A DNA stretch of 64,000 bases. It comes from an uncultured delta proteobacterium (lineage in GTDB: Bacteria; Desulfobacterota; Desulfobacteria; Desulfobacterales; B30-G6). The notes beneath the pieces were generated by a model. The model had not been told where the DNA came from and did not search any database. It was given only the letters and a program-made list of their open reading frames with translations. Positions 51,887-64,000 of this stretch are shown here, piece after piece (positions within the stretch are counted from its first letter, which is position 1; each line of letters opens with the position of its first letter). A program made the translations under genes and the position numbers. The DNA is taken from positions 288,001-352,000 of the forward strand of contig CAWGLD010000001.1 in assembly GCA_963823335.1 (NCBI GenBank). Reading direction: 5' to 3'.

Positions 51887-51987
51887 TGTGGCGTCCTCAT
51901 GTGTTAAAATGCTATTTGACTTAAGTTAAAAGTTATAAATAAGGTGTTACAAAGAGAAATAATCGCCGCAGAAAGCATGAAAACATA

Positions 51988-52719
51988 TCAATTGTCATCA
52001 AAACGTTCTTCTTTCCAAGGATCGGCAGTGTTGCTGTACCCGTTGCTTTCATAATACCCGGGCTCATCCGTAACGGTGAATTTGATTCGCCGGACCCATT
52101 TTACACTTTTGTAGAAATATCGATCCGGTACCAACACACGCAGTGGAGCCCCATTCGCCTGGGGAAGTTTTTTATCGAACAAACTATGGGCCAGCAATAC
52201 ATTGTTTTTACCGGCCTCATGAATGGAGATGTTGCTTGAATACTTGCCGGGTGCCTCGAAGATGACAAAACCAGCCGTGTTTTTAACCTTGACCAGCTCC
52301 ATAATATATTTCATGGAAATACCATGCCAGCGCGAATCAAGCAGCGTCCAGCCGGTTACACAATGCACATCACACGTTTGCGCAATCTGTTCTAATCTCA
52401 TCAGATCCGCAATCTTCAAAATCAATGGATTTTCAACTTCACCATCGATTTTCAAACTCCATTCAGAGACGTCGCCGTCGCTCTGACGTCCACCCATGTC
52501 TGGCAAGGCTTTTACGGCATGCTGACCAGGGGGAATTCGCAGTTGTCCGTCCGATCTCAGCTCCGCCGCCATGGCTTGATTGTCTGAATCCGTCAATTTA
52601 CAAAAGACACCTGGCAAGCCGATGAATACAATGGTTCCACCGGCCGCCGCCATAAAGTCTCTTCGGGTTATTTTACGGGGCATTTTCCTACCAAACCCCA
52701 TTTTTGCCTTCATGTCCAT
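51988..52719 (-). CDS. Tat-exported sulfite-oxidase-family molybdopterin oxidoreductase
   Basis: TRRDFM Tat motif; PPGQ, DVHCVTGW, GAPLR, KSVKWV and GYYE..GY. Confidence 0.88.
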   Translation of the reverse strand: MDMKAKMGFGRKMPRKITRRDFMAAAGGTIVFIGLPGVFCKLTDSDNQAMAAELRSDGQLRIPPGQHAVKALPDMGGRQSDGDVSEWSLKIDGEVENPLILKIADLMRLEQIAQTCDVHCVTGWTLLDSRWHGISMKYIMELVKVKNTAGFVIFEAPGKYSSNISIHEAGKNNVLLAHSLFDKKLPQANGAPLRVLVPDRYFYKSVKWVRRIKFTVTDEPGYYESNGYSNTADPWKEERFDDN

Positions 52720-53015: not shown

Positions 53016-53085
53016 GGAGACGGCACGTCTCCGGACGTTTTGTTTCGGAACCGCGTGCTTAGCACGCGGTTTGTAGAACAATCAA
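53016..53085. repeat. 70-bp hairpin-rich direct repeat, copy 1
   Basis: GGAGACG-GCA-CGTCTCC and AACCGCGTGC-TTA-GCACGCGGTT followed by TGTAGAACAATCAA; second copy at 55641-55710. Confidence 0.85.
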
Positions 53086-53218: not shown

Positions 53219-53875
53219 TCAGACAACTGATTTCTGCTTGGCTTTTTCCCAGTCTTCCAGTTCAACACCTTCTTCCACGTCTTCCCAGCCACTGATCATG
53301 GCTTTGGTGTGAGCGAGTATGGTATGTCCGGTGGTGGTCATGTAGACATGTACGATAATGAATGAAAAAACGGCAAAGGCGCCTGCCATGTGAACCCAGG
53401 CTACAAGGGTGAGAGAAATACCTGCAATACCCCAGTTGGCCCAGGAGTTGTAACCCCAGTAGAGAAAACCGGTAATCATCATTACCGGGAGAAGAAGCGC
53501 CGCCAGGTTCAGATAGACCAGACGTTGAAGGGGGTTGTGTTTGGCCTCTTTTCGTTTGGGAAACGGGTGGGACTCCCCTCGAAAAATACCATAGGCATAG
53601 TAGCGGATCACTTCAATCATTTTCTGGGTTGTGGGGATGTATTGTTTCCATTCACCGGTTGTGAACACCCAGAAGACAAAGAATGCAAAGGCAATAAGCC
53701 AGGTGAGGCCAGTAAAGTTGTGTACCTTGACGGCTGTGTGGAATCCCAGCCAGGTATACACACCATGCACCTCCAGTCCGCTTACAAGAAGAATGAGAAT
53801 CAGCGCCATCTGAAGCCAGTGCCAGAAACGTTCATAGCGTGTATAAAGATAAATATTTCTCATCTTGCCTTCCAT
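53219..53875 (-). CDS. cytochrome b (Ni-hydrogenase/PhsC-like di-heme membrane subunit)
   Basis: ERFWHW, VKVHN, HNPLQRL, WVH and IVHVYM; start at ATG 53875 after AAGGAG. Confidence 0.88.
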   Translation of the reverse strand: MEGKMRNIYLYTRYERFWHWLQMALILILLVSGLEVHGVYTWLGFHTAVKVHNFTGLTWLIAFAFFVFWVFTTGEWKQYIPTTQKMIEVIRYYAYGIFRGESHPFPKRKEAKHNPLQRLVYLNLAALLLPVMMITGFLYWGYNSWANWGIAGISLTLVAWVHMAGAFAVFSFIIVHVYMTTTGHTILAHTKAMISGWEDVEEGVELEDWEKAKQKSVV

Positions 53876-53891
53876 GATTGACTCTCTCCTT

Positions 53892-55526
53892 CTATTTTTT
53901 GTTATTTCCGTTGGTGAATATCCGGCCGATGCCGTGCAGGGAAACCCCCACAAGCGATCCCAGAATCACAAGCCAGCCCAAGGTATCCAGCAAGCCTGCG
54001 CTGTCGCGGCCCGGCATATAAAAGCCGGCCAGGTTCGCCATCCTGCCCTCATCACGCGTGTGACACTCGCTGCACACCACCACATTCTCTTTGGGGGCAA
54101 CCATGTGCGTGGTAGGATAGACAAAGGTCGTTTTAACAAAATCAAATTCGCCTGAGAACGGTATATCGAGGGATTTGGCACCATTCGAAAGGGCAACCTG
54201 CCAGTCGAGGGTGCTCCAGTAACCTTTGGGTCCCGACAGCAAGGGCGTCAACAGCGTCTTGTGCACCTTGTCGTAGGGCTGAACCCCCTCGTGGACCTTG
54301 AAAGGATAAATACGCGAGTTTTCATCGTTCCGGTCACCCAGTGGATGACTGAGTGCCACAACCCCGGATGGATCAATCGTATCCACTGCCGTGAGAGATT
54401 CAATGGAACCATTGAACCAGAAATATTGCGGTTTCAGATTTTTCTCCCACTTCATATTTCCTTTGATGGAAAGATAGTCTTCCTTCCCGTAGGCTCCCTT
54501 GGTTTTATAGGGTTTGCCGTCTTTGGTTTTCCCGGAAGTAGACCAGTCCCAGGACATTTTTGTCGGATTGACGCGCGCAAATGTCGGGATGTGGCAACTC
54601 TGGCAGGCGACCTTGTCCGTGTGGTCGTTGGCCTTGGATCCGGTCTTATGGGGCGTACTGCTGTGGCAGGATTCGCAGGTGATCTTGGACATCAGGTCAT
54701 CTTCGATCAGGCTTTTGCGATGTGTATAAGCCGGCGTCGTGTACATCCTGCCCGAAATGTTGTGCTGACTTGTGGTGTGGCAGCGGACACAATCGAAATT
54801 CTGACCATCGGTCCCCATATGGACGTCCAGCGCCTTGTTAGGTTTGGTCATGGACGAGTCGAGGTCACCATGCTTTACACCGTCACCACCACCGCCGTAG
54901 AAATGACAGGAGCCGCAGTTCTTCCGGGTAGGAAGGCCCACACTCTGAACGGCCAGCTTAATTTCGGATTGAATCTCATTGGCCAGCTCTTTCATTTCCG
55001 GATCTTCCTCTGACTCTTTCAGGAAGGCATTGAAATCCTCGAATGATTCATCCCAGTTAATTTCTTTGGAGCCATGGCAGACCAGGCAATTGGTGGCTTT
55101 GGTTTCATTGCCCCAGCCAGGATGACAGGAAAGACACCCCTTGTCTTGCCCGTTGTTAGCTGAAATACAGAAATTGTTCAGTGAATAAGCAGATTTCCCC
55201 ATCTGAACACCTTTTTCATTCGTGCCTGCCTTCCATGTCCAGTGGATGGTTTGATGAAATTGTGCTTCCGCCTCGGAATGACAGGAAATACAGGCAGCTG
55301 TCACCTGAGACCCTGACGTAAACGTCTGTTTTAACACCTCGTGCTTGGCGTGATCAGTCGTATTCCAGTGTTCGGCAATTTTGGCAGCCTGCTGCGCCAT
55401 GGTGCGGCCGGGTGCCTGATCTGCCGTTTCCTGAGCTGCCCAAGTTACGGATATCAAGCCTAAAAGAACCCAAACCGGTAGGAGAATAAAAAGAACGCCA
55501 GTGATTGGAGCGTTTGATGATTTCAT
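53892..55526 (-). CDS. otr: octaheme tetrathionate-reductase-family c-type cytochrome with C-terminal membrane anchor
   Basis: Eight CxxCH motifs (CISCH, CLSCH, CLVCH, CGSCH, CVRCH, CESCH, CQSCH, CSECH); HWTW, NNFC and GGGGDGVKHGDLD. Confidence 0.88.
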   Translation of the reverse strand: MKSSNAPITGVLFILLPVWVLLGLISVTWAAQETADQAPGRTMAQQAAKIAEHWNTTDHAKHEVLKQTFTSGSQVTAACISCHSEAEAQFHQTIHWTWKAGTNEKGVQMGKSAYSLNNFCISANNGQDKGCLSCHPGWGNETKATNCLVCHGSKEINWDESFEDFNAFLKESEEDPEMKELANEIQSEIKLAVQSVGLPTRKNCGSCHFYGGGGDGVKHGDLDSSMTKPNKALDVHMGTDGQNFDCVRCHTTSQHNISGRMYTTPAYTHRKSLIEDDLMSKITCESCHSSTPHKTGSKANDHTDKVACQSCHIPTFARVNPTKMSWDWSTSGKTKDGKPYKTKGAYGKEDYLSIKGNMKWEKNLKPQYFWFNGSIESLTAVDTIDPSGVVALSHPLGDRNDENSRIYPFKVHEGVQPYDKVHKTLLTPLLSGPKGYWSTLDWQVALSNGAKSLDIPFSGEFDFVKTTFVYPTTHMVAPKENVVVCSECHTRDEGRMANLAGFYMPGRDSAGLLDTLGWLVILGSLVGVSLHGIGRIFTNGNNKK

Positions 55527-55640
55527 ACAAAATTTCCCTTCGTTTCCATAGACCCTGCCGGGTCGGAAAGGGGCAACAGACTATAAGCTGTCTCAAAAAT
55601 GGCTTATAGTGTTGCCCCCTTATGGGTCTTAGCAGTCAAA

Positions 55641-55710
55641 GGAGACTGCACGTCTCCGTAAGTTCAGGTTCGGAACCGCGTGCCAAGCACGCGGTTTGTA
55701 GAACAATCAA
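55641..55710. repeat. 70-bp hairpin-rich direct repeat, copy 2
   Basis: Same length and hairpins as 53016-53085. Confidence 0.85.
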
Positions 55711-55721
55711 CGGGCCCTAAA

Positions 55722-56849
55722 TCAAGAGGCAGGTTTCTTGATGGTATATGAACCGTCTTTATTAAAGGTGGCTTCGGCTTCAAGATAGAAGACGTTTTTC
55801 AATTCCGGTCTGACATCCTGAACCATGTAATAAGCCTCACCGCTTCTGGCACCCGTTGAACAGACAAAAACCACGGGTTTGTCCGAAGGCAAAGAACTGA
55901 TCTTACCCTCGAGCTCATCTGTTGGAATATTGACAGCCGTTTTGAAACTTCCGGCAGCAAACTCATCAGGGTCGCGAACATCGATCAACATGATGCTTGC
56001 AGGGTTTTCCATGATAATTTTTTCAAAGGCAGCGATATCGATGGTACCCTCTTCTGCACCGGCTGTTACCTTGACCGGCTCTGCTGCTGCCATTTCCTCT
56101 TTCCATGCCGGGTATCCCGCGGCAAATACCATTACATCTTTGTAGCCCAGCTGAACCGCCTTCCTGGCGGAATTATGACTCAGCTTTCAGGTGTAGCCTT
56201 CGCAGTAGAAAACCAGAGGTTTACTTTTGTCAGCGGGCAGGTCACCTGTCATCTCATCGAACTTGCTGTCCGGCAGGCTGATGGCGCCTGGAATGTGGCC
56301 TTTGTCATACTTGGGGCGTTTGGGGCGTGAATCGATAATCGCAACATCGGCGCTGGTCTCCACCAGTTTTTTTACGACACTGGTCTCGACAGCATAGTAG
56401 TTGCCGGGGGTGCTTTTCCATTTCGGGAATCCGTCTTCGAATACCTTGACGTTCTTGTAACCGAGTTTTTCTGCCTTCCAGGCAGATTTGTGACTCAGTT
56501 TTCAAGTGGGGCCTTCGCAATAAAAAATAAGCAGAGCTTCCTTGTTCTCCGGCAGACTGCTCAGCATGCTTTCGAACTTGCTGTCCGGGATGCTGACGGC
56601 TGAAGGAATGTACCCCTTGTCATATTTCGGACGTTTGGGCCGTGAATCGATGATCATCGTGTCGGCAGGTACCGGCACCATGGCATACTGTTGAACAAAT
56701 GCCACATCAACGATGTCGTGAAATTTCCAGGAAGTGTCTTCCACGGCGCTTGCGGCTTCTGGCGCTTTGGGTGCAGAGGCGCAACCAAAAGTCACCAGCA
56801 GCAGCGCTGCAAGGATGGACACCACCAACAAACTTTTTCTTACTGACAT
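55722..56849 (-). CDS. triple-rhodanese lipoprotein with two predicted selenocysteines (U116, U221); 375 aa
   Basis: One continuous frame through TGA at 56502-56504 (FYCEGPT-U-KLSHKSA) and 56187-56189 (FYCEGYT-U-KLSHNSA); lipobox TFGC; a hairpin follows each TGA. Confidence 0.9.
56156..56170 (-). promoter_or_regulatory. SECIS-like hairpin for U221
   Basis: CCGCC-AGGAA-GGCGG; 21 nt separate the UGA from the loop. Confidence 0.65.
56470..56486 (-). promoter_or_regulatory. SECIS-like hairpin for U116
   Basis: TCTGCC-TGGAA-GGCAGA; 21 nt separate the UGA from the loop. Confidence 0.7.
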
Positions 56850-56878
56850 GTGAAACCTCCTTTAATTATTTTGTGTCT

Positions 56879-57009
56879 ATCCAGAAATAGGGATTTTCGC
56901 GTTCTGACAAGGCGGGCGTCAGATTTAACCCGGAGGAATAGCAAGCTATTTTGAGGAGTTAAATCATGGTGCCCAACACCGGCAGGGCGTGAAAAGACCA
57001 TTTGTGGAT
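56879..57009. repeat. nested palindromic intergenic element
   Basis: GATTTAAC (56922-56929) pairs with GTTAAATC (56958-56965); inner AATAGC-AA-GCTATT; imperfect outer arms. Confidence 0.55.
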
Positions 57010-57013
57010 GGCA

Positions 57014-57358
57014 CTATTTACATTTTGCAGGTGTAGGTGAATCAGAACCATGTTCATAGAGATAGGTAAAAATATCCACCAGATCCGTATCGCTGACACT
57101 GCTCCACTCCTCTTGACAACCAAATTCAGCAAATTCCTTATTGTCGAAAATCGCCATCCACTCAGCCTGGGTGTGAGCATCAGGATTAACGGTCGGTTTG
57201 GGGGAAGTCACCTCACCTCTTTCCATACAGGTTTTGTACAGCTTCCGGTAGGTGTATTTTCCTTTACGTTTATTGCCCATTTCCATGGCCAGCCCTGTGC
57301 CCACAAAGCACACAGACACCAGGATGGCCACTGCAGTCGATACAATTTTCTTTTTCAT
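57014..57358 (-). CDS. secreted cytochrome-c-like small protein lacking a canonical CxxCH
   Basis: Signal peptide; GNKRKGKYTYRKLYKTCME, TQAEW and H.SDSP.PAKC; AGGAGG RBS. Confidence 0.65.
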   Translation of the reverse strand: MKKKIVSTAVAILVSVCFVGTGLAMEMGNKRKGKYTYRKLYKTCMERGEVTSPKPTVNPDAHTQAEWMAIFDNKEFAEFGCQEEWSSVSDTDLVDIFTYLYEHGSDSPTPAKCK

Positions 57359-57432
57359 CCGATTACCTCCTAATTATTCAGCAATACAATGTTAAAATAT
57401 GAACGATTGGCTTTTTTTATCACATGAGTAAA

Positions 57433-57449
57433 AGCAATCTGTATGCCAG
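57433..57449 (-). promoter_or_regulatory. sigma-54 -24/-12 promoter of the cytochrome-like/rhodanese/otr/cytb operon
   Basis: CTGGCATACAGATTGCT, a near-perfect TGGCAC-N5-TTGC, 75 bp upstream of ATG 57358. Confidence 0.85.
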
Positions 57450-57547
57450 TTAGACAAAAAATTAAATTAATTATAATTTACTGTAATCAATATATTTTTT
57501 AATCTGTAAAACCTACAGGTTTATAAGAGTTGCTTATCAATTAACAC

Positions 57548-57570
57548 TTGTTAACCATAGCTGTTAACAA
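57548..57570. promoter_or_regulatory. candidate enhancer (activator-binding palindrome)
   Basis: TTGTTAAC-N7-GTTAACAA about 100 bp upstream of the -24 box; IHF-like AATCAATATATTT at 57485-57497 lies in between. Confidence 0.6.
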
Positions 57571-57630
57571 TTTCACCCGTAGCCTTATGGCTGGTCCAGG
57601 CGACAAATGGTGGCTTCTCCTTCGGACGGG

Positions 57631-57942
57631 TTAGAAAACAACATACCGATAGCAATCCTTTAACATAAACGACAGTGCCTGGGCCGGAACGACAGCCACA
57701 TCACGCCGACGATGATCGAAATGTTTTTCAGCATCCTGCTTTGCGGTGAACGGACACAGGGTCATCCGGACCAGACGGCTCAGGCGCGTACATGCGTCGG
57801 TCTTAATGAACTCACACCCCGATCCCAGCAGATGAATCCAGACCTGTTTCTCCTGTGCCAGGGCGGCATCAGCCAGTTTTTCAACAAAGCCAAAATACCT
57901 GTTCGAGTTGACGATAATACCCAGCCTGTTTTCTGCACGCAT
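57631..57942 (-). CDS. DsrE-like protein
   Basis: LGIIV...LADAA...V.IHLLGSG...TLC; start taken at ATG 57942. Confidence 0.65.
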   Translation of the reverse strand: MRAENRLGIIVNSNRYFGFVEKLADAALAQEKQVWIHLLGSGCEFIKTDACTRLSRLVRMTLCPFTAKQDAEKHFDHRRRDVAVVPAQALSFMLKDCYRYVVF

Positions 57943-57947
57943 CAGGT

Positions 57948-58139
57948 TCACCACCAACAAATGACCCGCTCATAAACAAAAATATCCTTCACCAGGCGCG
58001 ACCAGTCGACCGCGGTGCCGGAGACCTCGTCCTGATAAAGACTCACCACAGCGATTTCATCCTCGCCAGCCGAGGCTTCGATCAGCCTTGCAACACTTTC
58101 ATCCGGCTTGCATTTTAGAATGTGCAACACCTTTGTCAT
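57948..58139 (-). CDS. small DsrH/TusB-like protein
   Basis: KVLHILK...VDWSRLVKDIF...VICWW. Confidence 0.6.
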   Translation of the reverse strand: MTKVLHILKCKPDESVARLIEASAGEDEIAVVSLYQDEVSGTAVDWSRLVKDIFVYERVICWW

Positions 58140-58204
58140 CGTGACACCGTCGTACTCCAAAAAACCGTTGTTGTGTTCTTATCGGTCCTGTTCTTTTGTA
58201 TGAA

Positions 58205-58278
58205 TTGAAGAACCTCGCAGCATGCAAAGCACTGCTGCTGGCAGAACCCACGGGGAATGCACTCGCTGGTGCGGTTCA
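58205..58278. repeat. structured dispersed repeat, copy 3 of 3
   Basis: TTGAAGAACCTCGCAGCATGCAAAGCACTGCTGCTGGCAGAACCCACGGGGAATGCACTCGCTGGTGCGGTTCA. Confidence 0.85.
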
Positions 58279-58463
58279 TCCATGTTAACCTTAAATTTCT
58301 CTTTCTCTACAACAGCAATGTTCATACCAAATTTGTATAAAACATGTATCAATTTGATTTTATACATATAAATAATTTTCTATGCTCGCTTGCTTTTTTA
58401 TAGAGCCTGAACTATATTTACATTTGTTAACTTTTTCGGATTAGATTAACATCGGGAGTACCC

Positions 58464-59849
58464 ATGGACATATCAAAATACTGGAAAACCATCGTCGACA
58501 CCCTTCAGGATGGCGTCATGGTCGTGGACCCCGGCGGGAAGGTGTTGTCTGTAAACCCGGCCGCAGAACAACTGACCGGTTACATGGCCGAAGAGTTGAT
58601 CGGCAGATCCTGTCGTGTTCTGGACTGTAGCGGGTGTGAAATCATCGATCAGGGTAAAGGAGAGAAATGGTGCGGTCTTTTCCTGAAAGGGAACGTCAAA
58701 GCCAAAAAGTGTTTGATTACCAACAAAGACCACCGATCGATAAATATCATAAAAAATGCAACCATCCTTTATGACCAAGACAGAACCATCATTGGCGCTG
58801 TGGAGACACTGACCGACATGTCTACCCTGGTATCCCAGCGATTTGAAATTTCACAACTGCGCAAAAGCCTGCATCTAGACGAGGGATTTCACGGTTTGAT
58901 CGGAAAATCGCCTGTCATGCAAAACCTCTTCGAACTCATTGAAAATGTCGCCCTGACAGAGGCGCCCGTGATTATAAGTGGCCCAAGCGGCACCGGCAAA
59001 GAACTGGTGGCCCGCGCCATTCACGAAGCCAGCGATCGAAAAGAAGAGCCTTTTGTCAAGGTGAATTGTTCGGCCTTGAATGAAAACCTGCTGGAAAGCG
59101 AATTGTTCGGTCATGTCAGGGGCGCATATTCGGGCGCTGAAAAAAGCAGAATCGGTCGTTTTGAAGCTGCCCACGGCGGCACCATCTTTCTGGATGAAAT
59201 CGGTGATATCAGTCCGACCATCCAGGTCAAGCTGTTGCGAACTCTGGAGGAGAAGGAAATCGAGAGGGTCGGTGACAACCAGCCCATAAAGGTTGATGTA
59301 AGGGTACTCTCGGCAACCAACAAGAACCTGGAGTCGCTGGTGAACCAGAATCGTTTTCGGGATGATCTGTATTTCCGTATCAACGTGTTTCCCATCAACT
59401 GTCCGCCACTCAAGGAACATGTAACGGATATTCCCATTCTCGTGCAGAATTTCATCCGGCTCAACAACCAGAAGAGCGGCAAAACAATCCTGGGCATGAC
59501 ACCGGAGGCCATCGAAAAAATTACTGCCTACGAATGGCCCGGAAATGTCCGCGAGCTGCGCAATGCCATCGAATATGCCTTTGTTCTTTGCTCCAGTGGC
59601 GGAATCGGGGTCAATCATCTGCCACCAAAAATCGCCGGCACTTCACTGGAATGTGTCGCACCTGAAACAAAGAGTGATCGCCCGGGAAAGAAAATAGACG
59701 CATCCAAAAAAAGCGCTCTGATCAAGGCCCTTCGCCAGGCACATGGCAATCGGTCCGAAACTGCCCGCCTTCTGGGTGTCAGCCGGGTGACGGTCTGGAA
59801 ACAGATCAAAAAATTCAAGATCGATTTGTTCAAAGACCTGGCCACGTAA
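58464..59849 (+). CDS. PAS-domain sigma-54-dependent transcriptional activator (Fis-type HTH)
   Basis: Cys-rich PAS domain; GPSGTGKE, ESELFGH, GAYSGA (GAFTGA variant), FLDEIG and WPGNVREL; C-terminal HTH. Confidence 0.93.
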   Translation: MDISKYWKTIVDTLQDGVMVVDPGGKVLSVNPAAEQLTGYMAEELIGRSCRVLDCSGCEIIDQGKGEKWCGLFLKGNVKAKKCLITNKDHRSINIIKNATILYDQDRTIIGAVETLTDMSTLVSQRFEISQLRKSLHLDEGFHGLIGKSPVMQNLFELIENVALTEAPVIISGPSGTGKELVARAIHEASDRKEEPFVKVNCSALNENLLESELFGHVRGAYSGAEKSRIGRFEAAHGGTIFLDEIGDISPTIQVKLLRTLEEKEIERVGDNQPIKVDVRVLSATNKNLESLVNQNRFRDDLYFRINVFPINCPPLKEHVTDIPILVQNFIRLNNQKSGKTILGMTPEAIEKITAYEWPGNVRELRNAIEYAFVLCSSGGIGVNHLPPKIAGTSLECVAPETKSDRPGKKIDASKKSALIKALRQAHGNRSETARLLGVSRVTVWKQIKKFKIDLFKDLAT

Positions 59850-59853
59850 GATG

Positions 59854-60174
59854 TCATTGTGCTCGGAACAGCTTCTTGAAAAAACCTTTGTTCTCAGGTT
59901 CAGGCAGAGGTAAATCCAGCTGTTTGCAGATTTCTGTTTCTACTTCGAATTGGCCGATGTCCAATCCTTCTACGACAATTTCGTCCCCTACCATTACTGC
60001 CGGTGCTACGGGAAGTTCTAACTCAAAATACTCGTCGGTGATGTACGCTGCTTTTGGCTTGGATATGGTTTCAATCTCAATTTCGTATTTTTCACCCAGA
60101 CCGGGCATCATCTTTTTAAAATGTTTTCATGGCTTGCCATTGGGCTCATTTAGAAAAAACCGGACTTTCAGCAT
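59854..60174 (-). CDS. tsoC: small NEPxGxxU-motif predicted selenoprotein (U16), thioredoxin-like; 106 aa
   Basis: AGGAGG RBS then ATG 60174: MLKVRFFLNEPNGKP-TGA(60127-60129)-KHFKKMMPGLG, in frame with track ORF 59854-60111; hairpin GCCC-GGTCT-GGGT at 60094-60106. Symbol from recall of a family name, not from a search. Confidence 0.8.
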
Positions 60175-60291
60175 TTTTTGCCTCCTGTTTTGCAATACGA
60201 ATAAAGCCGTTAATATTTTGACACGATGCGTTATGACCTTTAAGATTCTTCTCCCAAGCAGTTGGGAAAAAGGGTTCAAGGGGCCCAGGAT

Positions 60292-62040
60292 TCAAGGGTT
60301 CAAGTGTTTGTTTTCCAAGGAAACCATTATCTTTAAAAATTCATTTGGTTCTATATAATCTACCACCCGCAAATCATTTCGCTCACGGCCTGAGGGGTCC
60401 AGGAATACGACCGTTGGAACACCTTTGACCTTGTATTTACGTAACAGGTGGTCATAACTTTGACGGTCCTTTTTAGTAAGATCCACTTTCACCATGACAA
60501 ATTCCTCTTGAGAAAGCTTGACGATATCCGGATGATGAAATGTAATCTGGTCCAACTCCCGGCATGGCGCACACCAATCAGCATAAAAATCGATGATCAC
60601 CGGTTTATTATTTTCTGCTGATTCCGCCAAAAGCCGGTCCGAATAATTGTGCCAGTAGACAGACGGTCCTTTGACCATTTGGTTGCCGATCAGAACGATT
60701 CCCATCACCAGGCAAACGGTGCCAATGATAGATTTTATCCAGGCAAACGAACGGAAAGTCGCTGCGCTTTTATCCAGCCATCCCAGATGAACACCGGCTG
60801 TAATGACAATGGTGGCAAGGATATATTTCTGTAGGACCCATGGCAGAATTGGCCGGATAAAGTAGGCGGCCATCCCGATGAGTACCCATCCCATGAGCCG
60901 TCGCACCCAATTCATCCATTCGCCGGATTTTGGCAGCTTTGCCAGTTGACCTGAAAACAATGCCAGGACAAACAAAGGTGTGCCCAATCCCAGGCTTAAA
61001 ATGAAAAAAATGACAAATCCAACCAGCGGGTCGCCAATTGCTGCAACCCAGGTCAGAAGCCCCAGCACGAAAGGACCGATACATGGTGCAGCCACCACAC
61101 CCAAGGTTATCCCCATGAAAAAGGAGCCAAAAAATCCCGTGTAGGATTTGGAGGCTGCCTGGGTCAGCCAAAAGGGAAGCCTAAGTTCCCAAAATCCGAA
61201 AAGACTCATGGCAAAGGCAGTCATCACTGATGCGATCGCAATCAGCACCAGAGGGTTTTGAAGTAATGCACCGATTAAACCTCCTGTGAGAGCTGCGATT
61301 ACACCCAGTAACGAGTTGGTTAGTGCCAATCCCCCAATGTAGCAGATACCGTGTCCGATAAGTCCCCGTTTACCCTGAGTGCTTCTTCCACCGAAATATG
61401 AGACTGTGATGGGGATCAGGGGATAGACACAAGGTGTGAGGTTCAACGCAAGACCACCGGCGAAGACACCCAACAGCGTCCATAGAAGTGCCCAACCAGA
61501 TAAGGAGAGATTCGATTCGGAAGGGGTCGTTTTTGATAACGGGTTCAATTTGCCCTGGGCGACCGGAAACCCTTTTGATTGCCAATGAGGATATCCTTCT
61601 GGATAGCGATATACATTTTGATACCCTAATTCTACGGCTACCCGAGCCGCCGAGTCGCTGCGGACTCAAGCCAGGCCCGCTCAGTAAAAAACAATCGTTT
61701 TTTCCTTATCTGGCCCAAGAAACGCTTTCAATTCCCCTTTTTTCTGCCATCTTGCCCACCACGTAGGTTCAATGGGGAAATTTACACTCTCGGCTATGTG
61801 GCCGGCACGGTGCTCCCATTCCTGGCGTGTGTCTACCAGCAGGATCTTTTCCTGATTTGACGGATACAGTTTCGACAGCGCATCAACATCTATCAGCCGA
61901 TAGCCACCGTTTTCGGCCTCCTGTTCAACTTGTGCCATGTTCGATACCACTATTGGCACCGGCAAATTGGAGTACCAGAGGACCAACACGGTAATTGAGA
62001 CGGCTAAGCATGGCAGAAGGATGGATCGAAAAATTTTCAT
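60292..62040 (-). CDS. tsoB: rhodanese-DsbD-thioredoxin fusion with two predicted selenocysteines (U120, U125); 582 aa
   Basis: Track ORFs 61681-62040 and 60292-61548 are in one frame via IVFY-U-AGLA-U-VRSDSAARVAVELGYQNVYRYPEGYPHW; DsbD motifs LTPCVYP, APC and WCAPC. Symbol from recall, not from a search. Confidence 0.85.
61635..61667 (-). promoter_or_regulatory. tandem SECIS-like hairpins for U120 and U125
   Basis: GAGTC-CGCAGC-GACTC (61652-61667) and CGGCT-CGGGT-AGCCG (61635-61649; 21 nt separate the second UGA from the loop). Confidence 0.55.
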
Positions 62041-62741
62041 CGGATTGTTCCTCCGCTCTCAGACAATTTCTCTTCCCCCTCAGATACCGCAAATCCCATT
62101 GCCCGCCAATCCTGGATTCCTTCTTCAAGGCGAACGGCATTGAAACCTCTTTTTCTTAGCATTTCTACGGCCTGGACAGCCAAGACACAATACGGTCCCC
62201 GGCAATATGCGACAATTTCCTGATCCTTAGGAAGTTTAGAAAATAATTCTTCAAGATGTCTCAGCGGTACAGATAAGGCCCCAGGGATGTGGCCCGCGTG
62301 ATATTCCGATTCCGGCCGAACATCAAGAACTGTTGCGGAGCCATTTTTTACACGCTGCAAAAGATCTTTTCTATCAACTGGTTCCATGCTTTCTTTACCT
62401 TCCAAAAAACGACGATTGATCATCTCGACCTCTGCCAATCGGTTTTCAGCCAATACGCGCATGGATCTGAAGAACTCACAAACCATTTGATCCGCAAGAC
62501 GGTACGTGACATACAGGCCTTCTTTCTCCGCTTCAATCAGGCGGGCCGCTCGAAGAACCTGAAGGTGCTGGGAGGTGTTGGCCGGGGTCAAACCGGTTTC
62601 TTGAGTTAAGGTTTCAACGGTTTTTTCACCCTGACAGAGAAGGTCAAGCAACTCCAGGCGTTTCGGGCTGGAAACGGCTTTACCAATTCTTGAGAATTGC
62701 TCATATATGGCATCCTTGAATTTTCTGTTTGGACTTTTCAT
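62037..62741 (-). CDS. ArsR/SmtB regulator fused to a rhodanese domain
   Basis: PKRLELLDLL and SQHLQVL; DVRPESEY..GHIPGA and YCRGPYC; start at ATG 62741. Confidence 0.93.
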   Translation of the reverse strand: MKSPNRKFKDAIYEQFSRIGKAVSSPKRLELLDLLCQGEKTVETLTQETGLTPANTSQHLQVLRAARLIEAEKEGLYVTYRLADQMVCEFFRSMRVLAENRLAEVEMINRRFLEGKESMEPVDRKDLLQRVKNGSATVLDVRPESEYHAGHIPGALSVPLRHLEELFSKLPKDQEIVAYCRGPYCVLAVQAVEMLRKRGFNAVRLEEGIQDWRAMGFAVSEGEEKLSESGGTIR

Positions 62742-62750
62742 GACCGCTCC

Positions 62751-62803
62751 TCTACTATTCAATTAATATATTGAATAGTAGATTTAAAACTGAACACTGT
62801 CAA
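62751..62803 (-). promoter_or_regulatory. sigma-70 promoter overlapped by an ArsR-type operator palindrome
   Basis: TTGACA (62798-62803), 17-nt spacer, TACTAT (62775-62780); perfect 13-6-13 inverted repeat TCTACTATTCAAT/ATTGAATAGTAGA at 62751-62782. Confidence 0.85.
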
Positions 62804-62965
62804 TGTTTTCTTATGTATCAAGTTTTGGAGGATAAATGGTGGATGGAAATTCTGGTGGGTTTACATTTGCTATCAGCTATCTGCTGTGGGCTAATTGTTG
62901 CTTCACTTGAATCCTGGAACCCCTCGAGTATCAGTTTTATTTTTTCACTGATCGTCTGATGGCCC

Positions 62966-63058
62966 TACCCGGATAAACGCTATGTATCGCTGGAAGCACT
63001 GGATATTCGCGATTTTGCCCGTGACGATCCACGCGGATTTTTAGCCGAGCATGCCGAT
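62966..63058 (+). pseudogene. short remnant resembling an AAA_14/DUF4143-type ATPase
   Basis: Translates as YPDKRYVSLEALDIRDFARDDPRGFLAEHAD, with no start and no full ORF. Confidence 0.45.
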
Positions 63059-63101
63059 TGGAAACATTCCAAATCTGTCCGCTCCTTAAGACGCATTTCA
63101 C

Positions 63102-63398
63102 TTAAGGGCTCTTCTTTATGGGTTTGCCTGGACAAACACCTTTAAGCACTCTTGAGTCCCTCACCACAACGGTTCCGGTGACCACCACAAAGGGAATGCC
63201 ACTGGAAGGCAGTCCGCCGTCTTTCATGGTCGCGTTGTCTTTGACGGTTTTCGAGTCAAAGACGGTGATATCGGCGTCTGTACCGACCTGGATGCGGCCT
63301 TTATGTGCCATCTGATCTACACCATTGTACTGGAGAAACTGGGCAATGAGATAGGTCATTTTCGAAACGCCATCCATGAGGGGGATGTCTACTTTCTT
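63102..63398 (-). pseudogene. C-terminal fragment of an amidohydrolase (D-aminoacylase-like)
   Basis: KGRIQVGTDADITVFD...VVVTG.VVV...PG; an in-frame stop lies just upstream and the catalytic barrel is absent. Confidence 0.7.
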
Positions 63399-63413
63399 TT
63401 ACAGCACCATCAA

Positions 63414-64000
63414 TTAAAACCGAAATCCCTTCCAGATAAAATACATACCCATTACCATCATCAAAACAGCACCGATCTGGTATACTTTTTCGCGCTGCCG
63501 CAACCAACGCAGATCCGTGAGTCTCGACACCAGAAAAAGCGCCGGCATGGTGCCGAAACCAAAACAGAGCATGAGACCCGCCCCGGAAAACACACCGCCC
63601 AGAGTGGTGTCTGCCTCCATTCCTGAGCGTGCAGCCGCAAGCAGGGCGGTATAAACCGGCCCGCAGGGCAGCAGCCCGAGAAGCAGTCCGAGAGGTAGAT
63701 ACATCAGGGGATGCTTCTTTTTCTGCAGCAGCTTTTTAAAAGCCCCGCTGATGAAGGTGCCAACCGGGGGCGCCGCCCGGAAGATGATACCGCTTGGCAC
63801 CCAGCCGGTCATTGCCAGACCCATCAGGATGATAAGGACACCCGCAGCCACCATGACCCCTTTTTGCAAACCATCGATACTTTCTGCAAAACGGGTGAAG
63901 GAGGCCATGCCACCTACGATTGCACCCAGGAGACCATAGGTCAGGGTTCGGCCGGTAGTGTAAAACAGATGGGGCCAGACCGATGGAGCACCCTTTAAAT
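63414..64000 (-). CDS. DsbD_2 / TauE-SafE-like membrane protein (5' end outside the window)
   Basis: Frame open to the window edge: HLFYTTGRTLTYGLLGA...GLLPCGPVY...FGFGTMP. Confidence 0.85.
   Translation of the reverse strand, partial: LKGAPSVWPHLFYTTGRTLTYGLLGAIVGGMASFTRFAESIDGLQKGVMVAAGVLIILMGLAMTGWVPSGIIFRAAPPVGTFISGAFKKLLQKKKHPLMYLPLGLLLGLLPCGPVYTALLAAARSGMEADTTLGGVFSGAGLMLCFGFGTMPALFLVSRLTDLRWLRQREKVYQIGAVLMMVMGMYFIWKGFRF

What the first reader, a model, noticed from the sequence alone, without database searches (positions are those of the whole stretch)
53219..62803. Hidden selenoprotein-rich sulfur/selenium redox system: five UGA codons in three genes beside an octaheme reductase
Seen: three genes that the ORF track breaks are continuous if UGA is read as Sec, four of the five UGAs sit at Cys-equivalent rhodanese active-site positions, and each UGA has a nearby hairpin. 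They lie in two regulated units, a sigma-54 unit (cytochrome-like, triple rhodanese, otr, cytb) and an ArsR-operator unit (ArsR-rhodanese, rhodanese-DsbD, NEPxGxxU protein), with DsrE/H-like genes and a PAS activator between. Known: rhodaneses carry sulfane sulfur, Otr-family cytochromes reduce tetrathionate and nitrite in vitro, and DsbD moves electrons across the membrane. Inference: a periplasmic Sec-based sulfane sulfur or selenium relay coupled to quinol and thioredoxin electrons. I recall family names for two parts (TsoB, TsoC) but know of no functional description of the combined locus.
Basis: partly seen in the sequence, partly recalled or inferred. Interest (0 to 1): 0.9.

Follow-up and report, generated by a model that had tools for sequence, protein, structure and literature searches.

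The report
Selenocysteine rhodaneses beside an octaheme reductase
Five apparent stop codons in three genes of a sulfate-reducer relative really encode selenocysteine, but they belong to two separate modules, one catalogued in 2025 and one a widespread sulfur-reductase cassette that hints at what the puzzling Otr cytochrome does.

Summary
All five in-frame UGAs are selenocysteine codons. The genome has selA, selB, selD and tRNA-Sec. Homologues carry only UGA or Cys codons at the rhodanese sites (66 and 53 of 119 sites). Conserved hairpins with compensatory changes follow each UGA.

The "combined system" does not hold. ArsR-rhodanese/TsoB/TsoC (59853-63413) is a strain-specific insertion that the closest relatives lack. 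It never lies near the Otr genes elsewhere (0 of 57 loci). TsoB and TsoC are curated families of the published Tso operon, here in a form without TsoA.

The other unit is a conserved cassette under a sigma-54 activator: a cytochrome-c-like protein (p114), a triple rhodanese (Rhd3), Otr and cytochrome b. In 15 of 57 loci Rhd3 instead follows a PhsA-like molybdoenzyme. Distant p114 relatives with a haem motif also precede PhsA-like genes. The best reading is a menaquinol-fed periplasmic reductase of tetrathionate, thiosulfate or polysulfide sulfur, with a Sud-like Sec/Cys rhodanese.

I found no published description of this cassette. This scan had already noted it, and TsoB, on other DNA.

The parts
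53219..53953 (-). Membrane cytochrome b (Ni_hydr_CYTB type), the likely quinol-oxidising subunit of the Otr cassette
   Evidence: PF01292 at 91.5 bits. The best NCBIfam hit is the thiosulfate reductase cytochrome b subunit PhsC at 118.9 bits, below its cut-off of 204. It lies next to otr in 27 of 57 homologous loci.
53892..55526 (-). Otr-family octaheme c-type cytochrome with a signal peptide and an extra C-terminal hydrophobic helix
   Evidence: TIGR04315 at 514.6 bits (cut-off 375). It matches Shewanella OTR 1SP3 at E 2.8e-107 over residues 62-492. Eight CXXCH motifs are read in the translation.
55641..55710 (.). Intergenic repeat element with internal hairpins; a second copy lies at 53016-53085
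   Evidence: Direct repeat D2, 70 nt, 89% identity. Other strains have a different hairpin sequence here (loose ends at 55637).
55722..56849 (-). Rhd3: periplasmic triple-rhodanese lipoprotein with two selenocysteines (U116, U221) in C-x4-U loops; the third domain has a classical CSTGARS loop
   Evidence: Three PF00581 stretches. Read-through translation. U/C alternation. Lipobox-like N-termini in most homologues. Full-length database relatives are at most 75% identical and named only 'rhodanese-like'.
56459..56504 (-). UGA (56502-56504) for U116, with its SECIS-like hairpin
   Evidence: MFE -17.7, z -3.98. The structure is conserved in 63 Sec sequences.
56144..56189 (-). UGA (56187-56189) for U221, with its SECIS-like hairpin
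   Evidence: MFE -17.1, z -2.37; conservation.
57014..57358 (-). p114: exported 114-aa protein with a cytochrome-c-like fold, no CXXCH, invariant C44, C81 and C113, and a flexible C-terminal tail DSPTPAKCK
   Evidence: No Pfam or NCBIfam hit. There are 578 relatives. Invariant residues. AF2 model at pLDDT 81.5. Nearly all top fold hits are class I cytochromes c, best 2fwt at Z 5.4, rmsd 2.9 over 63 residues. It lies next to rhd3 or otr in 50 of 57 loci.
57434..57448 (-). Sigma-54 type -24/-12 promoter (TGGCAT-N5-TTGC) upstream of p114
   Evidence: One mismatch to the consensus. A like site lies within 260 nt upstream of p114 in 10 of 15 homologous loci.
57631..57960 (-). 109-aa ORF, possibly DsrE/F/H-like
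   Evidence: ESM Atlas feature score 0.91-0.93 to DsrE/F/H clusters, a lead only. No Pfam hit. Present in 10 of 57 loci.
57948..58139 (-).
   Evidence: No family hit. Atlas best score 0.86, to unnamed clusters. Conserved in 16 of 57 loci.
58315..58329 (-). Second sigma-54-like site (TGGTAT-N5-TTGC) upstream of the two small ORFs
   Evidence: Two mismatches. Its conservation was not tested.
58464..59849 (+). Sigma-54 activator with an N-terminal Cys-rich PAS domain
   Evidence: PF00158 at 239 bits, plus PAS and HTH_8. Five Cys are invariant in 27 of 27 orthologues. Divergently adjacent in 36 of 57 loci.
59853..63413 (.). Strain-specific inserted segment holding the Tso unit
   Evidence: Synteny with L117, L119 and L073 stops at window 59848-59852 and resumes at 63413-63426. 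The L119 gap is 53 nt, and L117 and L073 hold other genes there.
59854..60174 (-). TsoC: cytoplasmic thioredoxin-fold selenoprotein with motif NEPNGKPU (U16)
   Evidence: NF045708 at 145.2 bits (cut-off 45). AF2 model at pLDDT 79.8 with U16 at the N-cap of helix 1. Fold hits are thioredoxins, glutaredoxins and ArsD at E about 5e-3.
60093..60129 (-). UGA (60127-60129) of TsoC, with a small hairpin at +22 to +36
   Evidence: The 6-bp stem is kept in 9-10 of 10 sequences. It is weak as a single-sequence fold.
60292..62040 (-). TsoB: rhodanese / DsbD transmembrane core / thioredoxin fusion with a U-x4-U loop (U120, U125)
   Evidence: NF045694 at 949 bits (cut-off 805). DsbD profile at 261.9 bits over residues 175-573. 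DsbD_TM, Thioredoxin_7 and Rhodanese domains.
61634..61683 (-). The two TsoB UGAs (61681-61683, 61666-61668) and two tandem hairpins
   Evidence: Both hairpins are kept in 17 of 17 sequences. Pair 38-44 is CG in 14 and UA in 3; pair 35-47 is GC in 13 and AU in 2.
62037..62741 (-). ArsR/SmtB-type regulator fused to a C-x4-C rhodanese domain; its stop overlaps the tsoB start (ATGA)
   Evidence: HTH_5 plus Rhodanese. NF033788 at 73 bits. TsoR model at only 44.8 bits against a cut-off of 115. The same fusion lies directly upstream of TsoB in 9 of 12 other loci.
62751..62782 (-). Operator-like palindrome TCTACTATTCAAT-N6-ATTGAATAGTAGA, just upstream of the RBS
   Evidence: Read; perfect 13-bp arms. 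By eye in the sequences, the core ATTCAAT-N6-ATTGAAT recurs in 8 of 10 loci, window included.
63102..63377 (-). 91-aa remnant matching the C-terminus of an amidohydrolase, at the edge of the inserted segment
   Evidence: PF07969 matches profile positions 428-472 of 472 at E 0.0013.

Best explanation
The stretch holds two independent redox modules, each using selenocysteine in rhodanese-type loops.

Module A (53219-59849) is a conserved cassette switched on by a divergently encoded sigma-54 activator with a Cys-rich PAS sensor.
- The cytochrome b (PhsC-like) takes electrons from menaquinol.
- It passes them to a membrane-tethered Otr octaheme cytochrome in the periplasm.
- Otr reduces an S-S bonded sulfur species: tetrathionate, thiosulfate, or polysulfide/sulfane sulfur.
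- The lipoprotein Rhd3 acts like Wolinella Sud. It captures and presents the sulfur substrate on two C-x4-U (elsewhere C-x4-C) redox loops and one classical rhodanese Cys.
- p114, a cytochrome c derivative that has lost the CXXCH motif, docks on Otr. Its flexible C-terminal Cys serves as a carrier or adaptor.

Module B (59853-63413) is a two-selenoprotein form of the published Tso operon that was inserted here.
- An ArsR-rhodanese repressor sits on a palindromic operator.
- TsoB moves cytoplasmic reducing power through a DsbD-type membrane core and a thioredoxin domain to a periplasmic U-x4-U rhodanese domain.
- TsoC is a cytoplasmic thioredoxin-fold selenoprotein that feeds or serves TsoB.

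Shown: family memberships, Sec decoding signals, conservation of each module, and the insertion.
Inferred: topology, electron path, substrate, and the roles of p114 and TsoC.
For: Sec decoding. The machinery is present. Only U or C occurs at the sites. Hairpins covary, and mean MFE is -17.8 for 66 TGA sites against -11.4 for 53 Cys sites.

Module A is conserved. Of 57 loci, 50 hold p114, 50 rhd3, 44 otr, 36 the activator and 27 cytb. Both p114 and otr are seen in 13 of 19 loci with 1.5-kb flanks. The sigma-54 site recurs in 10 of 15 loci, and five PAS Cys are kept in 27 of 27 orthologues.

Otr identity: TIGR04315 at 514.6 bits and 1SP3 at E 2.8e-107.

The sulfur reading.
- The best hit of cytb is PhsC.
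- In 15 of 57 loci Rhd3 lies directly after a PhsA-like molybdoenzyme and its Fe-S subunit.
- Seven of those loci also have an NrfD::Otr fusion and a p114 paralogue.
- Distant p114 relatives precede PhsA-like genes in 7 of 10 distant loci. The three whose sequences I saw keep CXXCH and the C-terminal Cys tail.
- Rhd3 domain 3 matches Sud 1QXN at E 5.2e-5.
- otr of a marine sediment bacterium rose 36-fold with tetrathionate (PMC8528874, passages).

p114 with Otr: the predicted complex scored 0.53, 0.53 and 0.50 against a best control of 0.01. The tool's verdict is 'weak support'. That mark was reached by 58 of 80 solved complexes and 2 of 110 mismatched pairs, but scores of 0.60 or under came from only 7 of those 80 solved complexes and from both mismatched passes. 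The runs agreed in 100% of contacts and the partner's pLDDT was at least 86.

Module B. TsoB scores 949 bits and TsoC 145 bits. The ArsR-rhodanese/TsoB/TsoC order recurs in 9 of 12 loci, and the operator is conserved. TsoC has a thioredoxin fold.

Insertion.

Contigs of three RNA libraries cover parts of both modules, including stretches across UGA positions. This is weak, because contigs cannot prove transcription.
Against: - No experiment bears on this locus, and the substrate and direction are inferred from neighbours only.
- Shewanella OTR also reduces nitrite and hydroxylamine in vitro (recalled, not read here).
- The cytb and PhsA-like hits are below their curated cut-offs (118.9 against 204; 549 against 694).
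- The p114 fold matches are modest (best Z 5.4; Foldseek E above 1), and the complex verdict is only 'weak support'.
- The residue after C44 varies (M, H or N), so I cannot tell whether p114 binds haem.
- The cytoplasmic small ORFs, one possibly DsrE-like, have no place in a purely periplasmic scheme.
- No Cys-containing orthologues of TsoB or TsoC were seen in 201 genomes, so their Sec assignment rests on hairpins, family curation and the Cys-bearing paralogous ArsR-rhodanese loop.
- ArsR-family control and the ArsD-like fold matches of TsoC would also fit a metalloid role.
Confidence: 0.6

Rival explanations
1. All the genes form one integrated periplasmic Sec-based relay for sulfane sulfur or selenium, in which quinol electrons (cytb-Otr) and thioredoxin electrons (TsoB) converge on the same carrier proteins.
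For: The units are adjacent in this genome. All three rhodanese-bearing proteins share the same [FY][C/U]xGxx[C/U] loop type. Both units appear in the same RNA libraries (weak).
Against: None of 57 Rhd3 loci has Tso genes within 10 kb. In the other genomes of the order that hold both, the genes are on different contigs. The Tso segment is missing at this site in the closest relatives. The two units have separate regulators and promoters. About 48 of 201 genomes in the sample have a near-full Rhd3 and 33 of 201 have TsoB, with only about a dozen holding both, which is close to the chance expectation.
Confidence: 0.1
2. Selenium or tellurium oxyanion handling. The rhodanese loops bind selenite-derived Se as selenotrisulfide or perselenide, and Otr/cytb or TsoB supply electrons for reduction to Se(0) or selenide, as detoxification or as Se supply for selenoprotein synthesis.
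For: The Geobacter extHIJKLMNOPQS cluster combines a rhodanese-like protein (ExtH), a 104-aa protein of unknown function (ExtJ), multihaem cytochromes (one a selenoprotein) and a cytochrome b, and has been implicated in selenite and tellurite reduction (PMC5877670, passages). An ArsR-family regulator controls the Tso unit. The TsoC model resembles the metalloid chaperone ArsD as well as thioredoxins.
Against: Cys forms make up 53 of 119 Rhd3 sites, so Sec looks like a catalytic upgrade and not a sign of selenium metabolism. The recurrent partners are PhsA- and PhsC-like proteins. Homology of p114 to ExtJ and of Rhd3 to ExtH was not tested.
Confidence: 0.15
3. Otr works here as a nitrite or hydroxylamine reductase for detoxification, and the rhodanese and p114 genes are functionally unrelated neighbours.
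For: The octaheme fold is related to NrfA- and HAO-type enzymes.
Against: The order p114-rhd3-otr-cytb is kept across families at 52-91% protein identity. The same Rhd3 and p114 families accompany PhsA-like enzymes when Otr is absent or fused to NrfD. No nitrogen-cycle gene was seen in the flanks examined.
Confidence: 0.08
4. The UGAs are real stops or pseudogene lesions, and the genes are broken.
For: Table 11 splits the genes. One close relative, L117, has Cys codons at both Rhd3 sites.
Against: The Sec machinery is complete. UGA recurs at exactly the same codon in dozens of genomes, with conserved downstream reading frames and covarying hairpins. TsoB has two TGAs in each of the 33 genomes that score over the family cut-off.
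Confidence: 0.02

Closest known systems
Tso 'three selenoprotein operon' (TsoA, TsoB, TsoC, regulator TsoR). Haft & Tolstoy 2025, mSystems. I know it only through the table and text of the review PMC13188914 and the NCBIfam models NF045694, NF045695, NF045707 and NF045708.
   Same: TsoB (U-x4-U rhodanese/DsbD fusion) and TsoC (NEPxGxxU) are full members above their cut-offs, adjacent and in the same order.
   Different: TsoA was not found in this genome, nor in 18 of the 33 TsoB-positive genomes of the order sample. The regulator is an ArsR-rhodanese fusion scoring 44.8 against a cut-off of 115 for TsoR. I could not read the primary paper, so I cannot say whether this form is described there.
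Octaheme tetrathionate reductase OTR of Shewanella oneidensis (PDB 1SP3; TIGR04315)
   Same: Same family. Eight CXXCH motifs, E 2.8e-107 over almost the whole chain, and the GK motif in the region of the lysine haem ligand is kept (the ligand's identity is recalled).
   Different: This Otr has an added C-terminal hydrophobic helix. It is encoded with a cytochrome b, a triple rhodanese and p114 under a sigma-54 activator.
Wolinella succinogenes Sud with polysulfide reductase PsrABC, and Salmonella thiosulfate reductase PhsABC (functions recalled)
   Same: A periplasmic rhodanese-fold sulfur-binding protein is encoded with a quinol-linked periplasmic sulfur reductase. Rhd3 domain 3 matches Sud 1QXN at E 5.2e-5. 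The best hit of cytb is PhsC. Rhd3 follows PhsA-like genes in 15 of 57 loci.
   Different: The catalytic subunit here is a multihaem cytochrome and not a molybdoenzyme. Rhd3 has three domains, two of them with a C-x4-U/C redox pair that Sud lacks.
Known rhodanese selenoproteins, 'forms 1-5' of the review table in PMC13188914, including NF041203 (LYCAU)
   Same: Sec lies in a rhodanese active-site loop. The UKLS of Rhd3 fits the UxxS motif listed for form 1.
   Different: Rhd3 has two Sec in one three-domain lipoprotein, each at +5 from a retained catalytic Cys. It scores 79 against a cut-off of 115 for NF041203. Identity with form 1 could not be tested because its exemplar could not be fetched.
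Escherichia coli DsbD
   Same: The TsoB core and C-terminal thioredoxin domain align with the DsbD profile (261.9 bits, residues 175-573), including the two membrane Cys and WCAPC.
   Different: The N-terminal immunoglobulin-like alpha domain is replaced by a rhodanese domain with two Sec.
Geobacter sulfurreducens extHIJKLMNOPQS cluster (PMC5877670, passages)
   Same: It combines a rhodanese-like protein, a roughly 100-aa protein of unknown function, multihaem cytochromes, a selenoprotein and a cytochrome b.
   Different: It has a porin-cytochrome conduit and Rieske/bc-type partners and no Otr. Sequence homology of its parts to p114 and Rhd3 was not tested.

Membership tests
TsoB (NF045694) | Whole-protein score over the curated cut-off of 805 bits | tested here: met
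   949 bits, profile positions 2-570 of 572; 936.9 bits in the genome scan.
TsoB (NF045694) | U-x4-U motif in the rhodanese loop (two in-frame TGAs) | tested here: met
   YUAGLAUV, U120 and U125. Every genome that scores over the cut-off (33 of 201 searched) has two TGAs.
TsoC (NF045708) | Score over 45 bits and the NEPxGxxU motif | tested here: met
   145.2 bits; NEPNGKPU.
Tso three-selenoprotein operon | TsoA (LULAxC selenoprotein, NF045695) encoded with TsoB and TsoC | tested here: not met
   No match at E <= 0.001 in the genome, which is 93.9% complete. The gene upstream of tsoB is an ArsR-rhodanese fusion.
Tso three-selenoprotein operon | Regulator TsoR (NF045707, cut-off 115) | tested here: not met
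   44.8 bits. The protein does meet the general ArsR/SmtB model NF033788 at 73 bits against a cut-off of 55.
Otr / tetrathionate reductase family octaheme cytochrome (TIGR04315) | Score over 375 bits, eight CXXCH motifs, homology to 1SP3 | tested here: met
   514.6 bits. Eight CXXCH in the translation. E 2.8e-107.
Otr / tetrathionate reductase family | Tetrathionate reductase activity | not testable with these tools
   Enzymology is needed. The only in situ hint is from another phylum (PMC8528874).
Rhodanese-related (seleno)protein NF041203 (LYCAU) | Score over 115 bits and the C-x-U motif | tested here: not met
   79.1 bits. The motif here is C-x4-U.
Rhodanese superfamily (PF00581) | Rhodanese domain with Cys (or Sec) in the active-site loop | tested here: met
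   Three stretches in Rhd3 and one each in TsoB and ArsR-Rhd. The first loop Cys of Rhd3 aligns with the loop Cys of 6mxv.
Bacterial SECIS-dependent selenoprotein genes | Sec machinery, hairpin downstream of the UGA, Cys homologues | tested here: met
   For TsoB and TsoC no Cys orthologue was found; the Cys-bearing ArsR-rhodanese loop is a paralogue.
Thiosulfate reductase cytochrome b PhsC (NF011582) | Score over 204 bits | tested here: not met
   118.9 bits. It is the best hit but only family-level likeness.
Class I c-type cytochrome | CXXCH haem-binding motif | tested here: not met
   p114 has YKTCM. In 46 Otr-linked relatives Y41 and C44 are invariant and the next residue varies. Distant relatives beside PhsA-like genes do have CXXCH. 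The fold likeness is modest.
DsrE/DsrF/DsrH (TusBCD) family | Match to PF02635 or PF04077 | tested here: inconclusive
   No Pfam hit even at E 5. Language-model likeness is 0.91-0.93 for the 109-aa ORF and nothing named for the 63-aa ORF.
Thioredoxin fold | beta-alpha-beta-alpha-beta-beta-alpha topology with the redox residue at the N-terminus of helix 1 | tested here: met
   The TsoC model has that order of elements, with U16 just before helix 17-29. The top fold hits are thioredoxins, glutaredoxins and ArsD, with probability up to 1.00 and E about 5e-3.

The most novel reading that the evidence does not exclude
The physiological substrate of Otr-family octaheme cytochromes may not be free tetrathionate. 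It may be sulfur held on partner proteins: a persulfide, thiosulfonate or selenenylsulfide on the C-x4-U/C loops of the Rhd3 lipoprotein, or on the C-terminal Cys arm of the cytochrome-c relic p114. On this reading Otr and PhsA-type molybdoenzymes are interchangeable catalytic heads of one partner-assisted sulfur reductase system. The evidence is that the same two accessory families travel with either head or with both: p114-Rhd3-Otr-CytB; FeS-NrfD::Otr-p114-PhsA-like-FeS-Rhd3; and haem-bearing p114 with a PhsA-like gene.
Probability: 0.25. Interest if true: 0.7.

Novelty: new variant of a known kind. Interest (0 to 1): 0.5.

Why it matters
Otr has had a crystal structure since 2004 but no settled physiological role. 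A cassette kept across many Desulfobacterales and some other lineages names its likely partners: a quinol-oxidising cytochrome b, a Sec/Cys rhodanese and a haem-motif-less cytochrome c relative. It also ties Otr to Phs/Psr-type sulfur reduction, which turns the question into a few direct assays.

The Sec forms of the triple rhodanese are split by gene callers. They do not appear as full-length proteins in the large protein collection searched, so selenoproteome counts for marine sulfate reducers are too low.

The window also shows that the recently named Tso unit moves as a small insertable block. It also has a common form with two selenoproteins and an ArsR-rhodanese regulator.

Tried and rejected
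- Primary Tso paper. Haft & Tolstoy 2025 is not held. What I say of Tso comes from the review PMC13188914 (passages) and from NCBIfam. That paper and its supplements may already describe the TsoA-less form or the triple rhodanese.
- Literature searches. None of these gave a description of the p114-Rhd3-Otr-CytB cassette: 'octaheme tetrathionate reductase' + rhodanese + Desulfo; octaheme + rhodanese + 'cytochrome b' + 'gene cluster'; SO_4144 / 'octaheme tetrathionate reductase'. I checked passages of PMC11492766 and PMC8528874 and otherwise saw only listings.
- Family scans. Pfam and NCBIfam found nothing for p114, TsoC (Pfam) or the two small ORFs.
- p114 fold. Foldseek gave no match at E <= 0.001.
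- 63-aa ORF. The Atlas gave no named family.
- Sigma-54 consensus. Window-wide it is not enriched (61 matches against 72.8 expected), so I relied on positional conservation.
- Rhd3 with p114. I did not resend it, so whether p114 contacts Rhd3 is untested.
- RNA libraries. They are contigs only, so they cannot show transcription, strand, ends or level. Parts without cover mean nothing.
- Notes near this place in the scan index: none.
- Rejected readings: pseudogenes, one integrated system, and a heme-bearing p114 in this genome.
- Not tested: homology of p114 to ExtJ and of Rhd3 to ExtH of Geobacter; identity of Rhd3 with 'rhodanese form 1'; conservation of the second sigma-54-like site.

Full report
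**What is in the sequence.** On the minus strand of window 53219-62803, table 11 breaks three genes that become continuous when TGA is read through.
- A triple rhodanese, here called Rhd3 (55722-56849; U116 and U221).
- A rhodanese/DsbD/thioredoxin fusion (60292-62040; U120 and U125).
- A 106-aa protein with NEPNGKPU (59854-60174; U16).

The other minus-strand genes around them are:
- a cytochrome b (53219-53953);
- an octaheme cytochrome (53892-55526);
- a 114-aa exported protein, here called p114 (57014-57358);
- two small ORFs (57631-57960 and 57948-58139);
- an ArsR-rhodanese fusion (62037-62741).

A PAS/sigma-54 activator lies on the plus strand (58464-59849).

**Are the UGAs selenocysteine codons?** The genome (93.9% complete) has selB (373 bits), selA (610 bits), selD (372 bits, itself with one TGA) and tRNA-Sec (75 bits), all over their cut-offs.

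Rhd3 homologues occur in 56 of 201 genomes sampled from the same order, with two, one or no in-frame TGA.
- In 20 aligned loci, site 1 is U in 14 and C in 6. Site 2 is U in 9 and C in 11. Both lie in the motif FYCxGxx[U/C]KLSHKSA.
- Over 77 loci I found 119 distinct sites, 66 TGA and 53 Cys codons. With the residue left free, five further pattern matches appeared. They lack the first Cys and look unrelated.
- The 52 nt after TGA sites fold to a mean of -17.8 kcal/mol, against -11.4 after Cys codons. The Mann-Whitney p of 3e-14 is overstated, because relatives are not independent.
- In 63 distinct Sec sequences the upper stem pairs in 62-63 of 63. One pair covaries at synonymous positions (CG 51, UA 4, UG 3, AU 5). 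Overall 838 of 945 cells pair, against 522 of 795 in Cys sequences.
- TsoB has two tandem hairpins, one after each UGA. They are kept in 17 of 17 sequences with CG-to-UA (14 and 3) and GC-to-AU (13 and 2) changes.
- TsoC has only a 6-bp hairpin, kept in 9-10 of 10 sequences.

One correction: by alignment to a solved rhodanese (6mxv), the Cys of FYC is the canonical catalytic position and the Rhd3 Sec lies five residues later in an enlarged loop. Only TsoB U120 replaces the catalytic Cys itself.

**The Tso half is known.**
- The small protein scores 145 bits on NF045708, 'NEPxGxxU motif selenoprotein TsoC' (cut-off 45).
- A 2026 review lists both, with TsoA (LULAxC). It calls Tso a 'three selenoprotein operon' described by Haft & Tolstoy in 2025 (PMC13188914, passages). 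The primary paper is not held.
- Earlier notes of this scan reached the same verdict on TsoB in other genomes.

What differs here:
- TsoA is not found in this genome.
- The regulator scores only 44.8 against 115 on the TsoR model.
- The gene in that position is an ArsR-rhodanese fusion with a C-x4-C loop. Its stop overlaps the tsoB start.

This form is common.
- In the order sample, 33 of 201 genomes have TsoB over the cut-off, always with two TGAs. In 18 of those 33, TsoA is not found at E <= 1e-10.
- In 9 of the 12 TsoB loci I fetched, the same ArsR-rhodanese (69-82% identical) lies directly upstream.
- A perfect 13-6-13 palindrome (62751-62782) abuts the ribosome-binding site. By eye, its core ATTCAAT-N6-ATTGAAT recurs in 8 of 10 loci, window included.
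- The TsoC model (pLDDT 79.8) has a thioredoxin fold with U16 at the N-cap of helix 1. Its best fold matches are thioredoxins, glutaredoxins and ArsD (E about 5e-3, none below 1e-3).

**The two units are not one system.**
- In 57 loci that encode an Rhd3 relative, fetched with up to 10 kb on each side, none has TsoB, TsoC or the ArsR-rhodanese.
- In the other genomes of the order that have both, the genes are on different contigs.
- The nearest relative, locus L117 (84-95% nucleotide identity over the aligned blocks), and also L119 and L073, align with the window up to 59848-59852 and again from 63413-63426.
- In between, L119 has 53 nt, L117 has one unrelated 367-aa ORF, and L073 has peptidase and signalling genes.
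- The window's segment ends beside a 91-aa amidohydrolase remnant.

The Tso unit is therefore an insertion into a variable spot between a DsbD_2-family gene and the activator gene.

**The Otr cassette is the conserved and less-described part.**
- Of the 57 loci, 50 hold p114, 50 Rhd3, 44 Otr, 36 the activator, 27 the cytochrome b, 16 the 63-aa ORF and 10 the 109-aa ORF. Contig ends limit these counts.
- The record titles are mostly Desulfobacterales MAGs, with a few SAR324 and others.
- A sigma-54 type site (TGGCAT-N5-TTGC, 57434-57448) lies 76 nt upstream of p114. The consensus is not enriched in the window as a whole (61 matches against 72.8 expected). However, a like site lies within 260 nt upstream of p114 in 10 of 15 homologous loci.
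- The activator's PAS domain has five Cys that are invariant in 27 of 27 orthologues. That fits an Fe-S or thiol-based sensor.
- Otr scores 514.6 bits on TIGR04315 and matches Shewanella OTR (1SP3) at E 2.8e-107. It adds a C-terminal hydrophobic helix.
- Most Rhd3 homologues have a lipobox-like N-terminus.

Full-length relatives of Rhd3 in the large protein collection are at most 75% identical and named only 'rhodanese-like'. The closer Sec-bearing relatives seen as DNA (77-91%) are missing there, as expected if gene callers split them.

**What p114 is.**
- It has no family hit but 578 relatives.
- In 46 aligned sequences Y41, C44, C81 and C113 are invariant and the residue after C44 varies. 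The C-terminus DSPTPAKCK is nearly invariant and is modelled as a disordered tail.
- The model (pLDDT 81.5) resembles class I cytochromes c only modestly. The best match is 2fwt at Z 5.4, rmsd 2.9 over 63 residues; Foldseek gave nothing below E 1. Nearly all top rows are c-type cytochrome domains.
- A profile search of 301 genomes across the phylum found the family in 22.
- The three closer relatives sit beside Otr.
- Of the ten distant loci, seven have the gene directly upstream of a Tat-exported molybdoenzyme. Its best family is thiosulfate reductase PhsA (438 bits on a 474-aa N-terminal part). The three distant sequences that I retrieved have a true CXXCH and keep the C-terminal Cys tail.

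So p114 is a cytochrome c derivative in which Tyr replaces the first haem Cys. The family as a whole accompanies periplasmic sulfur reductases. A predicted p114-Otr complex scored 0.53, 0.53 and 0.50 against a best control of 0.01. The tool calls this 'weak support' and notes that scores of 0.60 or under are more often wrong than right unless the pairing was already likely.

**A second architecture ties Rhd3 to Phs/Psr chemistry.** In 15 of the 57 loci, Rhd3 lies directly after a PhsA-like molybdoenzyme (549 bits against a cut-off of 694 in L078) and an Fe-S subunit. Seven of these loci also encode a 1090-aa fusion of an NrfD-type membrane subunit with an Otr-family octaheme domain (531.5 bits), a p114 paralogue and a PAS/sigma-54 activator. 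Two further hits point the same way: PhsC is the best hit of the window's cytochrome b, and Sud (1QXN) matches Rhd3 domain 3. This favours sulfur intermediates over nitrogen or selenium compounds as substrates. An in situ study reported a 36-fold rise of an acidobacterial otr transcript after tetrathionate addition (PMC8528874, passages).

**Mechanism proposed.**
- Inferred electron path: menaquinol, then cytochrome b, then the Otr haems, then cleavage of an S-S bond in tetrathionate, thiosulfate or polysulfide-type sulfur.
- Rhd3 acts as a Sud-like binder whose C-x4-U/C pairs can form and resolve a selenenylsulfide.
- p114 acts as an Otr-docking adaptor or carrier through C113.
- For Tso: cytoplasmic reductant, then the TsoB membrane Cys pair, then WCAPC, then the periplasmic U-x4-U loop. 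TsoC is a cytoplasmic partner. The ArsR-rhodanese is a repressor released by a thiol-reactive signal.

None of this was measured.

**Expression.** Contigs from three estuary RNA libraries, at roughly 93-99% identity, cover parts of otr, rhd3 (across both UGA positions), p114, the activator, tsoB (across both UGAs) and the ArsR-rhodanese. One contig joins p114 to rhd3. Contigs cannot prove transcription, and DNA may be present in such libraries, so this is only a hint.

**Comparison and novelty.**
- TsoB and TsoC are already known.
- Sec in rhodaneses is known as a kind (the review table).
- Rhd3 with two C-x4-U loops fits no curated selenoprotein model (79 against 115 on NF041203) and is generically annotated.
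- I found no paper describing the p114-Rhd3-Otr-CytB cassette or its PhsA-linked sister form.
- The Geobacter ext cluster is a published analogue (rhodanese, small unknown protein, cytochromes, cytochrome b; PMC5877670). Its homology to these genes was not tested.
- Earlier notes of this scan had already described the triple-rhodanese selenoprotein and the Otr operon in other genomes, with similar conclusions. They are unchecked AI notes and are not independent evidence.
- What this window adds: the insertion that explains the adjacency, the TsoA-less Tso form, and the link of both accessory families to PhsA-like enzymes.

**Verdict.** This is a new variant of known kinds, of moderate interest.

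Noticed in passing
L117 (closest relative locus), Rhd3 sites: The nearest relative has Cys codons (TGC, TGT) at both Rhd3 sites but keeps both SECIS-like hairpins (-17.7 and -19.0 kcal/mol). This looks like a very recent Sec-to-Cys conversion. That locus also lacks the Tso insertion and shows a frame break in rhd3.
   Followed up: partly
window 53016-53085 and 55641-55710: A 70-nt intergenic repeat (89% identity) with two internal hairpins sits after cytb and between rhd3 and otr. Other strains carry a different hairpin sequence at 55637.
   Followed up: partly
window 56863-57014: The p114-rhd3 spacer is 152 nt longer than in contigs of three RNA libraries and in L117, so it is a small insertion inside the operon.
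   Followed up: no
window 56257-56340 and 56572-56655: Rhodanese domains 1 and 2 of Rhd3 share 82% nucleotide identity over 84 nt, which indicates a tandem domain duplication.
   Followed up: no
L078 2696-5968: A 1090-aa protein fuses an NrfD/HybB-type membrane subunit to an Otr-family octaheme domain (531.5 bits). It is encoded with Fe-S proteins, a PhsA-like molybdoenzyme, a p114 paralogue and a Sec-containing Rhd3.
   Followed up: partly
G000:C1:1234241-1234564: Another rhodanese-like stretch with two in-frame TGAs lies beside a thioredoxin-like ORF elsewhere in the same genome.
   Followed up: no
G000:C5:144246-145172: The genome's selD itself carries one in-frame TGA, so it is a selenoprotein form of selenophosphate synthetase.
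   Followed up: no
window 60246-60321: The 3' end of tsoB and the spacer after it resemble (88%) a stretch of L073. In addition, the last residues of TsoB (SLENKHLNP) match the C-terminus of a 71-aa ORF elsewhere in L073. The tsoB end may have been remodelled by a small repeated element.
   Followed up: no
window 50420-52719: Downstream on the same strand lie a Tat-signal molybdopterin oxidoreductase domain protein (51988-52719, PF00174) and a GAF-SpoIIE/PP2C phosphatase (50420-51886). The Mo-domain protein was seen in none of the 57 homologous cassette loci, and the phosphatase matched only weakly (23-44% identity) in 4.
   Followed up: partly
window 63102-63377: A 91-aa ORF matches only the last 45 positions of an amidohydrolase profile. 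It is a gene remnant at the border of the inserted segment.
   Followed up: no
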